Shown one piece after another: positions 11,674 to 14,016 of a stretch of 64,000 bases of DNA (its first letter is position 1; every line of letters starts with the position of its first letter). The position numbers and the translations under genes were made by a program. The stretch lies in assembly GCF_009914755.1 (NCBI RefSeq), contig NC_060934.1; one strand, 5' to 3'. Below the pieces are notes generated by a model. That model was not told where the DNA came from. It ran no database searches and was given only the letters and a program-made list of their open reading frames with translations. Source of the stretch: the human T2T-CHM13v2.0 reference genome, Homo sapiens.

Positions 11674-11776
11674 TCGTTGTTCATTTTTTACCTGACAGAA
11701 ACAGAATGTAACATACCACCCATGTTTTCTACATACTTTTCCTTAGCGGTTATGGGTCTTGAGAGCTACTCTTTCT

Positions 11777-12116
11777 TTTTCCTTTCCTTTCCCCTCCCCT
11801 CCCCTCCCCTCTCTTTTTTTTTTTTTTTTTTTTTTTGAGACGGAGTCTCGCTCTGTTGCCCAGGCTGGAGTACAGTGGCACAATCTCAGCTCACTGCAAG
11901 TTCTGCCTCCCAGGTTCACGCCATTCTCCTGCCTCAGCCTCCCGAGAGCTGGGGCTACAGGTGCCCACCACCACGCCCGGCCAATTTTTTGTATTTTTAG
12001 TAGAGATGGGGTTTCACTGTGTTAGCCAGGATGGTCTCGATCTCCTGACCTCATGATCCGCCCTCCTTGGCCTCCCAAAGTGCTGGGATTACAGGTGTGA
12101 GCCACCGCACACGGCC
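11777..12116 (-). mobile_element. AluY-like (left breakpoint Alu of the putative inversion)
   Basis: Reverse dimer with AluY diagnostics; the tail includes (CCCCT)n. Confidence 0.92.
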
Positions 12117-12120
12117 AATG

Positions 12121-12187
12121 TTTTCTTTTTTTAACTTTTATTTTGGGTGTGGGGGTACAGGTGAATGTTACATAGGTAAACACATGA
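12121..12187 (-). mobile_element. Short L1 3'-terminal fragment
   Basis: ttttaacttttatttt...gggggtacag...gttacataggtaaacacatg matches the reverse of an L1PA/PB 3' end. Confidence 0.7.
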
Positions 12188-12769
12188 ATGATGAATAATT
12201 TTAATGGTAATTACAAATTAATGAGCAATTAGTATTACTAGATTAGGGCTGAGGCTTTCAGTAAATTCCTCAATTGCCTCATTTCCTTTTCTCAACCTTA
12301 TGAAGTATTATTGTCTCCATTTTATAGATGGGGAAGCTGAGGCTCAGTATGGCTAGTCAGAACGAGGAGTCAAATACATGTTTATCTGGCACCAAATCCA
12401 CCATTTTTAGCATGATTTTTTTTTACCTCATTTTTTTTTAAGCATTTTCTACAGTCATTTCTGTCTAGCACGTTGTGTTAGAGTTTATTTTGCTTGGCCT
12501 CCAAGGCCCAATTCAAATAGTATCTCTCTCATAAAATCTTCCCTTCATCCCCAGTAATAATTTTTTTCTTAGTAAGCATGCTAATAACTAAGAATTCTCA
12601 GTTTGTATTGCACAGCAGTACACCACATTTTCTATTTTGTGTCATAGTTATTTGGGTACAAGAGTGTCTTCCTCCATTAGGGCTGTTCCTCAGCAAAGTA
12701 TCTAGCTAAAATTGCTTCTCAACATAGCTTTGCTAATAATTGCATTCCAGGACAGAAATAGTAGCTCTC

Positions 12770-13077
12770 GGCCAGGCGCGGTGGCTCACGCCTGTAATCC
12801 CAGCACTTTGGGAGGCCGAGGCAGGCGGATCACGAGGTCAGGAAATCGAGACCATCCTGGCTAACAAACACAGTGAAACCCCATCTCTACTAAAAGTACA
12901 AAAAATTGGACGGGCGTGGTGGTGGGCGCCTGTAGCCCCAGCTACTCAGGAGGCTGAGGCAGGAGAATGGCGTGAACCGGGGAGGCGGAGCTTGCAGTGA
13001 GCCGAGATCGCGCCACTGCACTGCAGCCTGGGCGACAGAGCGAGACTCCGTCTCAAAACAACAACAACAAAAATTTT
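12770..13077 (+). mobile_element. AluY-like (right breakpoint Alu of the putative inversion)
   Basis: Forward dimer with AluY diagnostics and a (CAA)n tail. Confidence 0.92.
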
Positions 13078-14016
13078 AAAACCTTAAAAAGATTATTTGT
13101 CATGAATATCTTCCAAATTATTTGTCATTAATAGTCTCCAAAGTGAAAATCTAGTATGTCTGACTCTCTGTGGGAATTACTGGAGTTGGATTAAATTCCA
13201 CCCAGGCTAGTCTCCCTTCCCTTCAACACACATTCTTCTCTTCTAGCCCCACAGCCACCATCTTTGATCACCACCACACACCACTGCCCTTACCTCAAAT
13301 GCGTACTCCTCCACGAAACCAACACTCCACAACCTTCACAGCCCAGAACCACATCCTCTGCCCAAAAAGCTGTCCTAGACACTGAGCCCAAGGTGATCTC
13401 CAAAACCATAACACTCTTACTATGCATATCTCATATTTGGTGACTTTATGTGAACATACCATGTCCTCAATTAGATAGCCAGCTCTCTGAAGGAAGAGCC
13501 TGAATCTTTTACTTCAGAAGCCTCAACAGCACTTATCACAATGATATCTAAAAGGTACACAGTAAATATTTGCTCATTGAGAGATCACAATAAGCAAATG
13601 CTATATAATAATTATATCCATTAACAGGTATGCTTTGTAGTATAAAAAAGGCTTTTACTGAGATTATCTTATTGAATATTCCTGAAAATCTTATTAGTTA
13701 AGCAGATTAGGAATTCTTATTCTTATGTGTAAGATGAAAGAACTGAGGTCCAGAATGGTCAAATGACTTACCCACAGTCACACAGCTGGCATTTGGCAGA
13801 GCCAGCACCAGAATCCTGGTCTTTTTTACTCCTATTTCTAATAAGCATAGAACCCGTTTGCTACTGTAGGTTTTACAAACGTAGTCCAAAGATAAACCAA
13901 CCATGATGACAGTATATTTTCTAAACAAGGTGAGAACAGTTATATGCCTGGGATTATTTTTCAGACTTTCTGGTTTGACATTATCCTCCCAAAATAATCA
14001 TGATTTTGAAATACCA

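What the first reader, a model, noticed from the sequence alone, without database searches (positions are those of the whole stretch)
11761..13103. Apparent Alu-Alu recombination inversion (~650 bp) revealed by swapped target-site duplications
Seen in sequence: two head-to-head AluY-like elements, A (11777-12116, minus) and B (12770-13077, plus). (i) The flank beyond A's tail (11761-11776; reverse complement AGAAAGAGTAGCTCTC) matches at 15/16 the sequence just before B's head (12754-12769, AGAAATAGTAGCTCTC), not A's own head. (ii) A's head flank (reverse complement ...AAAACATT) resembles AAAACCTT after B's tail (13078-13085); this match is weaker. (iii) The short L1 3' fragment abutting A's head has a 5' flank (12188-12202; reverse complement AAAATTATTCATCAT) that reappears in the opposite orientation beyond B (13089-13103, AAGATTATTTGTCAT). 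The match is 12/15, and the CA/TG difference is what CpG decay on opposite strands would give. Established: TSDs are direct repeats flanking one element, and inverted Alus mediate NAHR inversions. Inference: both Alus are reciprocal chimeras and the spacer 12117-12769 was flipped after they inserted. It may be lineage-specific or still polymorphic.
Basis: partly seen in the sequence, partly recalled or inferred. Interest (0 to 1): 0.8.

Follow-up and report, generated by a model that had tools for sequence, protein, structure and literature searches.

The report
Small Alu-to-Alu inversion, swapped flanks
Two oppositely oriented Alu repeats 650 bases apart carry each other's insertion scars, which shows that the DNA between them was flipped after both had inserted; this is a well-known, usually harmless kind of small rearrangement in primate genomes.

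Summary
The main observation holds. Alu A (minus, 11777-12116) and Alu B (plus, 12770-13077) lie head to head. The 16 bases beyond A's tail match the 16 bases before B's head at 15/16, in inverted orientation and exactly at the element ends. None of 25 other Alu tails in the window scores above 11/16.

A second scar pair supports this. A 58-bp L1 3'-end stub abuts A's head. Its 5' flank recurs beyond B's tail in the opposite orientation, at 12/15 and 13/16; 0 of 25 control tails reach 13.

A and B also share five derived substitutions. All five lie in one 65-column central patch, and the combination is nearly unique genome-wide. This fits sequence exchange between the two Alus.

Best reading, 0.85: an Alu recombination-mediated inversion, the known class of Lee et al. 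2008.

- The crossover position, and so whether both Alus are reciprocal chimeras, is not settled.
- Age, lineage and polymorphism could not be tested, because no outgroup or second human assembly was reachable.
- The locus is not among Lee's 49 human/chimpanzee loci.

It is an ordinary new member of a known kind, of low to moderate interest.

The parts
11761..11776 (-). Target-site duplication y, copy 1, just beyond Alu A's tail. It reads AGAAAGAGTAGCTCTC on the minus strand.
   Evidence: It matches 12754-12769 at 15/16 in inverted orientation (pair I16). None of 25 other Alu tails reaches this score; their maximum is 11.
11777..11838 (-). Tail of Alu A: poly-A (poly-T on the plus strand, 11814-11838) followed by a G/A-rich microsatellite (C/T-rich on the plus strand, 11777-11813).
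   Evidence: Read directly.
11836..12116 (-). Alu A body, full length, head at 12116.
   Evidence: BLAST to B covers 286 columns at 90.6% identity. There are two Metazoa_SRP half-matches, 11835-11981 and 12001-12115, on the minus strand. It is 92.7% identical to a majority reference built from 29 genome copies.
11954..12018 (-). Central patch in A (alignment columns 103-167). It holds all 5 derived substitutions that A shares with B.
   Evidence: It lies inside the 77-nt arm that is 96% complementary to B (pair I4).
12117..12128 (-). A-rich stretch between the L1 stub and A's head. It is the remnant of the L1 poly-A tail and would hold the left copy of the second Alu TSD (x), which cannot be verified.
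   Evidence: The A-rich flank matches any Alu tail at 11-14 of 16. The 8-mer test gives 6 of 25 controls equal or better.
12126..12186 (-). 5'-truncated L1 3'-end stub (about 58 bp plus the start of its poly-A), in the same orientation as A.
   Evidence: All 39 other scored genome matches start at query 13-19, that is window 12182-12188, most at 12186. They run to the poly-A. The five copies inspected all end in poly-A followed by unrelated flanks. One copy, L011, has the L1 ORF2p C-terminus just upstream (residues 1165-1275, E 3e-51).
12187..12202 (-). 5' flank of the L1 stub, the left copy of the L1 TSD. It reads AAAATTATTCATCATT on the minus strand.
   Evidence: It matches 13089-13103 and 13114-13128 at 12/15 and 13114-13129 at 13/16. 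None of 25 control tails reaches 13.
12203..12753 (.). Unique spacer, inverted relative to the outer flanks. It contains an old MIR-type SINE core at about 12293-12355.
   Evidence: A genome search with 12200-12750 finds only itself at full length, plus 36 short matches to query 74-156, which is the MIR-like core. The name MIR is recalled, not given by a tool.
12754..12769 (+). Target-site duplication y, copy 2, just before Alu B's head (AGAAATAGTAGCTCTC).
12770..13077 (+). Alu B: body 12770-13055 and A-rich tail to about 13077.
   Evidence: There are Metazoa_SRP half-matches at 12771-12889 and 12909-13056 on the plus strand. It is 94.1% identical to the 29-copy majority reference.
12872..12936 (+). 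Central patch in B (alignment columns 103-167) with the 5 substitutions shared with A.
   Evidence: The 38-mer 12906-12943 has only 25 matches with up to 2 mismatches in the whole genome. All three variant bases occur together in only 4 of them: A, B and two others.
13078..13085 (+). It is not distinguishable from chance.
   Evidence: It scores 7/8, but 6 of 25 unrelated tails score as high.
13089..13141 (+). Right copy or copies of the L1 TSD, inside a 25-nt tandem duplication (13092-13116 and 13117-13141, 84% identical). They are now in the opposite orientation to the left copy.
   Evidence: family D8 and pair I17.

Best explanation
This is an Alu recombination-mediated inversion.

Order of events.
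1. A short 5'-truncated L1 inserted and made its own direct repeats.
2. Two AluY/Sc-type elements then inserted about 650 bp apart in opposite orientation. One made the 16-bp duplication AGAAA(G/T)AGTAGCTCTC. The other landed in or next to the L1 poly-A tail.
3. A homology-guided exchange between the two inverted Alus on the same chromosome flipped everything between the two exchange points.

Outcome.
- One copy of the 16-bp duplication stayed beyond A's tail. The other was carried, upside down, to B's head.
- The L1 stub and its left repeat were carried to A's head, while the L1's right repeat stayed beyond B's tail.
- Both Alus remained full length, so the exchange was in register.
- The 65-column central patch of shared derived bases is most simply the gene-conversion tract of that exchange, or of an earlier or later interaction of the same pair.

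What is shown: the anatomy, the swapped scars and the shared patch.
What is inferred: that the exchange was a crossover, where it lies within the Alus, and when it happened.

No function is implied. It is a neutral structural scar inside the SHTN1 gene span, about 24 kb from the 3' end of VAX1 (hub annotation).
For: 1. The swapped TSD is 15/16, inverted, and abuts A's tail end and B's head exactly (pair I16). In a 26 x 26 matrix of tail regions against head flanks it is the only non-trivial off-diagonal value of 15 or more among 650. The two 16/16 values are Alus that physically abut. None of 25 other tails exceeds 11/16.

2. Neither Alu has a convincing TSD of its own. Own A scores 12/16 from an A-rich flank and fails at the five head-adjacent bases. 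Own B scores 10/16. Most other window Alus show clear direct TSDs. On the ungapped 16-nt test, 4 of 26 own pairs score 15 and 2 score 16, and the neighbouring Alu at 11390-11673 scores 13.

3. The L1 stub is an independent marker. Its identity and 5' boundary are fixed by 39 other genome copies and by ORF2p upstream in one copy. Its 5' flank recurs beyond B's tail on the opposite strand at 12/15 twice and at 13/16, with 0 of 25 controls reaching 13. No copy of that flank lies beyond A's tail, where it would be if there had been no inversion: one search found no match in 11600-11800.

4. There is evidence of exchange between the Alus. Polarised against a majority reference of 29 genome copies, A has 16 private changes and B has 9 plus a 4-nt insertion. 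The 5 shared changes all fall in columns 103-167. Two of the five are not at CpG sites.

5. That shared combination is nearly unique. A 38-mer carrying three of the shared bases has 25 matches with up to 2 mismatches in 3.1 Gb. Only 4 carry all three bases, and two of those are A and B.

6. The only indels separating A and B from the reference (B columns 94-97, A column 175) lie at the two edges of the patch.

7. The size, the full-length Alus and the roughly 90% identity fit the published class.
- In Lee et al. 2008 most Alu-mediated inversions are under 1 kb (PMC2603318, Results read).
- In the Porubsky et al. preprint the nine Alu-flanked polymorphic inversions have a median of 685 bp (passages).
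Against: No outgroup genome or second human assembly could be consulted, so the ancestral orientation rests on internal scars only.

The second Alu's TSD pair is not recoverable: the A-rich match is at chance level.

The L1 repeat match is only 12/15 to 13/16 in AT-rich sequence. It is duplicated in tandem, and a position-blind local alignment did not rank it (151 of 600 control pairs scored as high).

The Alu bodies do not look like simple halves of an old and a young element.
- A carries more private changes than B on both sides of the patch: 6 against 4 on the 5' side and 8 against 2 on the 3' side.
- A central crossover would predict mixed halves. An exchange near the tails fits this pattern as well or better.

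Three of the five shared changes are CpG transitions. About two such coincidences are expected by parallel decay (my estimate from the counts).
Confidence: 0.85

Rival explanations
1. The same inversion happened, but not by a classical crossover. Possible routes are replication template switching (MMBIR or fork stalling at the inverted Alu pair), or two breaks provoked by a hairpin or cruciform and rejoined with short homology.
For: The arms are only 90.6% identical. Identical runs between A and B are short, up to about 30 bases by my reading of the and 37 alignments. The Porubsky et al. preprint notes that only 1 of 9 Alu pairs flanking inversions exceed 90% identity and suggests a different process (passage). 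Balachandran et al. 2022 found extra complexity at both breakpoints in 4 of 7 Alu-mediated inversions and discuss MMBIR (PMC9675761, passages). Here the only small indels sit at the edges of the shared patch.
Against: Both Alus are full length and in register, with no deletion or filler of the sizes reported for complex junctions (38-251 bp deletions, 14-23 bp insertions). A conversion-like tract flanked by exchanged markers is what double-strand-break repair with crossover predicts. The two small indels could be unrelated slippage.
Confidence: 0.15
2. The exchange lay near or in the poly-A tails, so the two Alu bodies swapped places whole and neither is a chimera. The central shared patch comes from a separate gene conversion without crossover.
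For: A has more private changes than B on both sides of the patch: 6 against 4 and 8 against 2. A has lost far more CpGs. This is simpler if each body has a single history. The last roughly 24 bases of the bodies plus the start of the tails are identical in A and B. The better-kept 16-bp TSD would then belong to the less decayed body, B.
Against: It needs two events where one suffices. Among A's 29 nearest genome neighbours, the linked 5' pair 49A/53A (9 copies carry 53A) and the linked 3' pair 218A/221A (11 copies) never occur together: 0 observed against 3.4 expected. The uncorrected P is 0.005, with 45 pairs examined. This is a weak hint that A's two halves have different sources. The difference in private changes between A and B is only marginal (16 against 9-10).
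Confidence: 0.3
3. There was no inversion. The inverted 16-mer is a coincidence or part of an older inverted repeat, and both Alus simply have decayed TSDs.
For: A's own flanks share an A-rich 9-mer, scoring 12/16. No outgroup test was possible.
Against: A match of 15/16 at two positions fixed by the element ends is expected about 1e-8 per position pair (my arithmetic). The pattern has 0.66 expected matches in the window even with 3 mismatches allowed. The similarity stops exactly at the Alu ends on both sides, so it is not part of a longer inverted repeat. A's own match fails in the five bases next to the head. The L1 repeats independently point the same way.
Confidence: 0.03
4. The rearrangement arose during the retrotransposition of one Alu, as an insertion-coupled event comparable to twin priming, rather than by later recombination.
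For: B's private divergence outside the patch is about 2.7%, similar to its post-exchange divergence inside the patch (2 of 65 columns). The exchange could therefore be about as old as B. The numbers are very small.
Against: Twin priming inverts part of the inserted element, not 650 bp of pre-existing unique DNA. B's first roughly 100 bases are not A-like, so they were not copied from A. No duplicated extra copy of the 16-mer exists: one search found only two copies.
Confidence: 0.03

Closest known systems
Alu recombination-mediated inversions (Alu-RMI, a subclass of RRMI), Lee et al. 2008, PLoS One 3:e4047 (PMC2603318; abstract, Results, Methods section 19 and Table S1 read)
   Same: Two full-length Alus in opposite orientation span the breakpoints. 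Neither element's own TSDs match. The event is under 1 kb and no sequence is gained or lost.
   Different: The locus is not among their 49 listed loci; the only chr10 entry is at 69.3 Mb in hg18. It was recognised here from one genome alone, without the un-inverted allele. It therefore probably predates the human-chimpanzee split or was missed, and the crossover point cannot be mapped.
Polymorphic Alu-flanked balanced inversions in human genomes, Porubsky et al. preprint 10.1101/2021.12.20.472354 (passages only)
   Same: The size class matches: their median is 685 bp and the spacer here is 653 bp. So does the moderate arm identity: only 1 of their 9 pairs exceeds 90%, and this pair is at 90.6%.
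   Different: Their events are polymorphic. Polymorphism here is untested.
Transposable element-mediated rearrangement (TEMR) inversions, Balachandran et al. 2022 (PMC9675761; passages read, and supplements searched)
   Same: The inversion is between TEs in opposite orientation. The junctions are mostly homology-consistent, and Alu events are small.
   Different: In 4 of their 7 Alu inversions the junctions carry deletions or insertions of tens to hundreds of bases. Here only a 4-nt insertion and a 1-nt deletion lie at the edges of the shared patch.
Alu recombination-mediated deletion (ARMD), Han et al. 2007 (PMC2041999; search listing and abstract only)
   Same: The substrate (nearby Alus) and the presumed recombination are the same, and the products are chimeric Alus.
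   Different: ARMD uses Alus in direct orientation, removes the intervening DNA and leaves one chimera. Here the Alus are inverted, nothing is lost and two elements remain.
L1 twin-priming inversions (named in the Porubsky et al. preprint abstract, listing)
   Same: Both are small inversions (under 2 kb) associated with a retroelement.
   Different: Twin priming inverts part of a single new L1 between one pair of direct TSDs. Here the flipped DNA is pre-existing unique sequence with an old SINE, between two separate Alus.

Membership tests
Alu recombination-mediated inversion (Alu-RMI/RRMI) | Two Alu elements in opposite orientation span the two breakpoints. | tested here: met
   A is on the minus strand and B on the plus strand, head to head, 653 nt apart, with arms 89-96% complementary (pairs I2-I4). 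The strands are confirmed by Rfam 7SL half-matches.
Alu recombination-mediated inversion (Alu-RMI/RRMI) | Each element's own TSDs no longer match; the matching copies lie on different elements in inverted orientation. | tested here: met
   Pair y scores 15/16 across the two elements, against own scores of 12 and 10. The second pair x is uninformative because it is A-rich: 6 of 25 controls score as well.
Alu recombination-mediated inversion (Alu-RMI/RRMI) | An independent marker shows that the intervening segment is flipped relative to the flanks. | tested here: met
   The L1 stub's flanking repeats are now on opposite strands either side of B: 12/15 twice and 13/16, with 0 of 25 controls reaching 13. 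This is weaker than pair y.
Alu recombination-mediated inversion (Alu-RMI/RRMI) | The un-inverted (ancestral) arrangement exists in an outgroup or in other individuals. | not testable with these tools
   The genome held has no relatives (header). No primate or second human assembly is reachable.
Alu recombination-mediated inversion (Alu-RMI/RRMI) | Both elements are reciprocal chimeras of the two pre-recombination Alus. | tested here: inconclusive
   For chimerism: a shared central patch, and 49A/53A against 218A/221A never together in 29 neighbours (0 against 3.4 expected). Against: A carries more private changes than B on both sides of the patch.
Alu (dimeric 7SL-derived SINE) | Two 7SL-related monomers, an A-rich tail, and a length of about 280-300 bp. 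| tested here: met
   Rfam Metazoa_SRP matches each half of A (49.4 and 39.2 bits) and of B (41.5 and 38.2 bits) with E from 4.5e-11 to 7.7e-8, below the family's gathering score of 70 as expected for a derived SINE. The tails were read. The 40 scored genome matches to B include 39 other copies at 92-94% identity. The subfamily label (AluY/Sc type) is from recall, not from a tool.
LINE-1 3' end (5'-truncated insertion) | Homology to the terminal bases of L1 ending in poly-A; the full copies carry ORF2 upstream. | tested here: met
   39 other scored genome copies align from window 12182-12188 to the poly-A. The five inspected end in poly-A followed by unrelated flanks. The open frame upstream in L011 matches ORF2p residues 1165-1275, E 3e-51. 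Pfam gave no hit for 4 such frames.
L1 twin-priming inversion | The inverted piece is part of one newly inserted L1, bounded by a single pair of direct TSDs. | tested here: not met
   The inverted segment is unique DNA with an old SINE core, lying between two separate Alus. The L1 stub is only about 58 bp and is not internally inverted.

The most novel reading that the evidence does not exclude
The inversion is young: specific to great apes or humans, or still segregating in people. It lies inside the SHTN1 gene span, 24 kb from the homeobox gene VAX1. Separately, the single-genome signature used here (swapped TSDs, a third nested marker and a conversion patch) could be run genome-wide. That would catalogue old, fixed Alu-mediated inversions that pairwise human-chimpanzee comparisons cannot see, and would show how often such exchanges leave a central conversion tract.
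Probability: 0.12. Interest if true: 0.4.

Novelty: new member of a known kind. Interest (0 to 1): 0.3.

Why it matters
On its own it matters little. It is a neutral scar of about 0.65-1.3 kb in non-coding DNA, with no annotated functional element at the site in the hub's table.

Its value is as a clean, internally documented example of a known process.
- It shows that an inversion between nearby inverted Alus can be recognised from one assembly alone, through swapped insertion scars and a nested older insertion.
- It shows that such an event can leave a short patch of sequence exchange in the middle of the repeats.

If it proved polymorphic or lineage-specific, it would add one locus to the small lists of Alu-mediated inversions: 28 between human and chimpanzee in Lee et al. 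2008, and 9 polymorphic in the Porubsky et al. preprint.

Tried and rejected
1. Polarity test from paralogues. I searched the whole assembly with the spacer 12200-12750. It found only the locus itself plus 36 short matches to an old SINE core. No repeat or duplicate spans the predicted ancestral junctions, so this route gives nothing.

3. A position-blind local alignment of flanks with down-weighted A:A matches.
- It ranked the y pair only 6th of 600.
- It did not find the L1 repeat; the A-head against B-tail comparison was equalled by 151 of 600 control pairs.
- I set it aside in favour of position-specific tests, because TSDs are defined by position.

4. Pfam on four open frames upstream of L1 3' ends gave 0 families. 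I used solved ORF2p structures instead.

5. Catalogue look-ups.
- Lee 2008 Table S1 does not list the locus.
- Supplements of PMC12350169 (2 files) and PMC9675761 (5 files) gave 0 occurrences of my coordinate prefixes.
- The GRCh38 and hg19 prefixes used in those two searches came from recalled gene positions, so these negatives are weak; only the T2T prefixes used follow from the hub's window coordinates.
- The journal version of Porubsky et al. is not held, and the preprint's supplements are closed.
- A full-text search for SHTN1 + inversion + Alu found 0 papers.

6. Locating the crossover from private and shared substitutions and from A's and B's nearest genome neighbours gave only hints. 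The result is inconclusive.

7. Readings considered and rejected.
- An inverted duplication of Alu plus flank. A's head lacks the y copy and only two y copies exist.
- A DNA-transposon terminal inverted repeat. The similarity stops at the Alu ends.
- Independent insertion of two members of a rare Alu lineage 650 bp apart. This is too improbable given 4 detectable carriers in 3.1 Gb.
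Full report
WHAT IS THERE

The window is T2T-CHM13 chr10:117,986,001-118,050,000 (hub note; confirmed). Between 11.3 and 13.2 kb lie three Alu elements.
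- A neighbouring Alu at 11390-11673, minus strand.
- Alu A: minus strand, head at 12116, body to about 11836. Its tail is poly-T at 11814-11838 plus a C/T-rich microsatellite at 11777-11813.
- Alu B: plus strand, head at 12770, body to 13055, tail to about 13077.

Rfam scores each of the three as two 7SL (Metazoa_SRP) half-matches on the expected strand, with E from 1e-19 to 8e-8. Those of A and B fall below the family's gathering score, as expected for a derived SINE.

A and B are head to head, 653 nt apart. They are 90.6% identical over 286 aligned columns and both are full length.

Between A's head and the unique spacer lies a 58-bp stub on the minus strand.
- 39 other scored copies in the genome align to it, starting at window 12182-12188 (mostly 12186) and running into a poly-A.
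- The five copies I inspected all end in poly-A followed by unrelated flanks.
- In one copy, the open frame just upstream matches the C-terminus of LINE-1 ORF2p (residues 1165-1275, E 3e-51).

The spacer holds an old SINE core at about 12293-12355; 36 short genome matches hit it. The name MIR is recalled, not given by a tool. The rest of the spacer is unique in the assembly.

CHECK OF THE OBSERVATION

(i) The 16 nt beyond A's tail (11761-11776) and the 16 nt before B's head (12754-12769) are 94% complementary (pair I16).
- The 16-mer has only 3 matches with up to 3 mismatches in the window: itself, this partner and one 3-mismatch site.
- As a control I took 26 full-length window Alus. For every ordered pair I scored the 16 nt before one head against the 120 nt after the other's body.
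- A-tail against B-head-flank gives 15/16. Among 650 off-diagonal pairs the only higher values are two 16/16 pairs in which the Alus physically abut. All other values of 12 or more involve A-rich head flanks, apart from a few at 12-14.
- Against the other 25 tails, B's head flank reaches at most 11.
- A's own pair scores 12. This comes from an A-rich flank, and the five bases next to the head do not match. B's own pair scores 10.
- Most other window Alus show plain direct TSDs, including the neighbour at 11390-11673. The absence of own TSDs in A and B is therefore not a general feature of the region.

It carries no weight.

(iii) The L1 stub's 5' flank matches 13089-13103 and 13114-13128 at 12/15, on the opposite strand.
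- That call found 9 matches in the window against 3.6 expected.
- Extended to the 16-mer that abuts the stub, the best match is 13/16 at 13114-13129. None of 25 control tails reaches 13; their maximum is 11.
- The right-hand copy lies in a 25-nt tandem duplication (family D8), which is why there are two candidates.
- No copy lies beyond A's tail, which is where it should be if nothing had been inverted.
- A position-blind local alignment did not rank this pair, so it is supportive rather than decisive.

WHAT IT IS

TSDs are direct repeats made at insertion. Here one Alu TSD pair and the TSD pair of an older, nested L1 stub are each split between the two sides of the spacer, in inverted orientation.

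Reversing the segment between the two Alus turns both pairs into direct repeats.
- The left Alu is then flanked by the 16-mer on both sides.
- The L1 stub plus the right Alu is then flanked by the L1 repeat on both sides.
- The right Alu then sits in the L1's poly-A tail, a common target.

Other explanations do not hold.
- The similarity stops exactly at the Alu ends, so it is not a longer inverted repeat.
- Only two copies of the 16-mer exist, so it is not an inverted duplication of Alu plus flank.
- Chance is negligible.

Mismatched own TSDs are the criterion Lee et al. 2008 give for recognising retrotransposon recombination-mediated inversions (PMC2603318, Methods section 19). Most of their Alu-mediated events are also under 1 kb.

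EXCHANGE BETWEEN THE TWO ALUS

I built a majority reference from the 29 genome copies most similar to B. Those copies are on average 96.8% identical to it. I then polarised all differences.
- A is 92.7% identical to the reference and B is 94.1%.
- A has 16 private changes: 6 on the 5' side, 2 central and 8 on the 3' side.
- B has 9 private changes plus a 4-nt insertion: 4 events on the 5' side, 3 central and 2 on the 3' side.
- Five changes are shared, all within columns 103-167 (A 11954-12018; B 12872-12936). None is shared elsewhere.

Three of the five are CpG transitions. About two such coincidences are expected from parallel decay (my estimate from the counts). Two are non-CpG transitions, and I expect only about 0.1 of those by chance.

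A 38-mer from B carrying three of the shared bases has only 25 matches with up to 2 mismatches in 3.1 Gb. All three bases occur together in just four copies: A, B, and one each on contigs C7 and C2 (aligned). Two carriers of so rare a combination, 650 bp apart, are best explained by transfer of sequence between A and B.

The only indels that separate A or B from the reference (B columns 94-97; A column 175) lie at the two edges of this patch. I noticed this after the fact.

WHERE THE CROSSOVER LIES

This is not settled.

A single double-strand-break repair event with crossover would give the conversion patch and the inversion together. One weak hint supports this.
- Among A's 29 nearest genome neighbours, the 5' variants 49A/53A are linked: 7 joint occurrences against 3.1 expected.
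- The 3' variants 218A/221A are also linked: 11 of 11.
- 53A and 221A never occur together: 0 against 3.4 expected.
- The uncorrected P is 0.005, from 45 pairs examined in an ascertained sample.

Against a central crossover, A carries more private changes, and far more lost CpGs, than B on both sides of the patch. This is simpler if each body has one history. The exchange would then lie in the identical last roughly 24 bases and the tails. Part of A's excess may be inherited from its source, since the C7 copy shares several of A's variants, including a non-CpG one at column 6.

I give the central, chimeric version about even odds and the tail version about 0.3. Either way the spacer is inverted relative to the outer flanks.

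MECHANISM

A homology-guided exchange between inverted repeats on one chromatid is the standard model.

A replication-based route (template switching or MMBIR) is a real rival, for two reasons.
- The arms are only about 90% identical.
- The literature notes both the low identity of Alu pairs at inversions (Porubsky et al. preprint, passage) and frequent junction complexity (Balachandran et al. 2022, passages).

The clean, in-register, full-length products here favour the simple model.

AGE AND STATUS

The locus is not among the 49 human/chimpanzee RRMI loci of Lee et al.; the only chr10 entry is at 69.3 Mb in hg18. This weakly suggests that humans and chimpanzees share the arrangement.

Within the patch, A and B differ at 3 of 65 columns, against roughly 6-7% total divergence of each element from the reference. 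The exchange would therefore fall somewhere in the middle of the elements' lifetime. The counts are too small to date it.

I could not reach any outgroup genome or second human assembly (header).
- Searches of two papers' supplements gave nothing. The GRCh38 and hg19 coordinate prefixes in them came from recalled gene positions, so these negatives are weak.
- A full-text search for SHTN1 + inversion + Alu found no paper.

Whether the inversion is lineage-specific or polymorphic stays open.

VERDICT

- The event belongs to a well-described class.
- No annotated functional element lies at the site in the hub's table.
- Nothing about its anatomy would surprise a specialist.
- Its modest interest lies in the three mutually consistent internal markers and the central conversion-like patch, which make it a tidy single-genome example.

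Noticed in passing
window 13092-13141: A 25-nt tandem duplication (two copies, 84% identical) lies just beyond Alu B's tail. It contains the right-hand copy of the L1 stub's flanking repeat, so there are two candidate copies (family D8).
   Followed up: partly
window 11777-11813: Alu A's poly-A tail has grown a G/A-rich microsatellite (C/T-rich on the plus strand, units of 5 bases) between the A-run and the TSD. Similar tail microsatellites occur at the Alus with heads at 50813 and 54127.
   Followed up: no
G000:C7:32613825-32613862 (L015) and G000:C2:196693954-196693991 (L016): These are the only two other Alus in the assembly found to carry the same three rare central bases as A and B. The C7 copy also shares A's non-CpG change at column 6 and several CpG changes. 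A small Alu source lineage may exist; its size was not measured.
   Followed up: partly
Alu A columns 49/53 and 218/221 (window about 12064-12068 and 11900-11903): Among A's 29 nearest genome neighbours, 49A/53A are linked and 218A/221A are linked, but 53A and 221A never co-occur (0 against 3.4 expected). This may mark two Alu sublineages joined in A. It is a post hoc observation on an ascertained sample.
   Followed up: partly
window 11933-11983, 12907-12958, 11487-11538; 11411-11470, 11857-11916: Sub-threshold Rfam matches to mir-1268 (48-56 bits against a gathering score of 83) occur inside all three Alus, and to mir-3135 (31-35 bits against 80) inside two of them, the neighbour and A. These microRNA families evidently resemble Alu sequence; the matches are not evidence of miRNA genes here.
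   Followed up: no
window 11338-11677: The neighbouring Alu has the same orientation as A and is also inverted relative to B (235-nt arms, 80% complementary, pair I1). It keeps its own direct TSD (13/16 ungapped), so it took no part in the exchange. It served as a local positive control.
   Followed up: yes
window 31890-32479 and 58786-59422: In two places one Alu sits directly against the tail of another in the same orientation. The 16 nt before the second head lie inside the first one's tail region, giving trivial 16/16 scores.
   Followed up: no
window 59913-60230 and 22016-22041: The tail flank of the Alu at 59913 matches the 16 nt before the head of the Alu at 22041 at 14/16. The shared string resembles Alu-internal sequence, and a partial Alu precedes 22041. 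It is probably not a TSD relation, but this was not examined.
   Followed up: no
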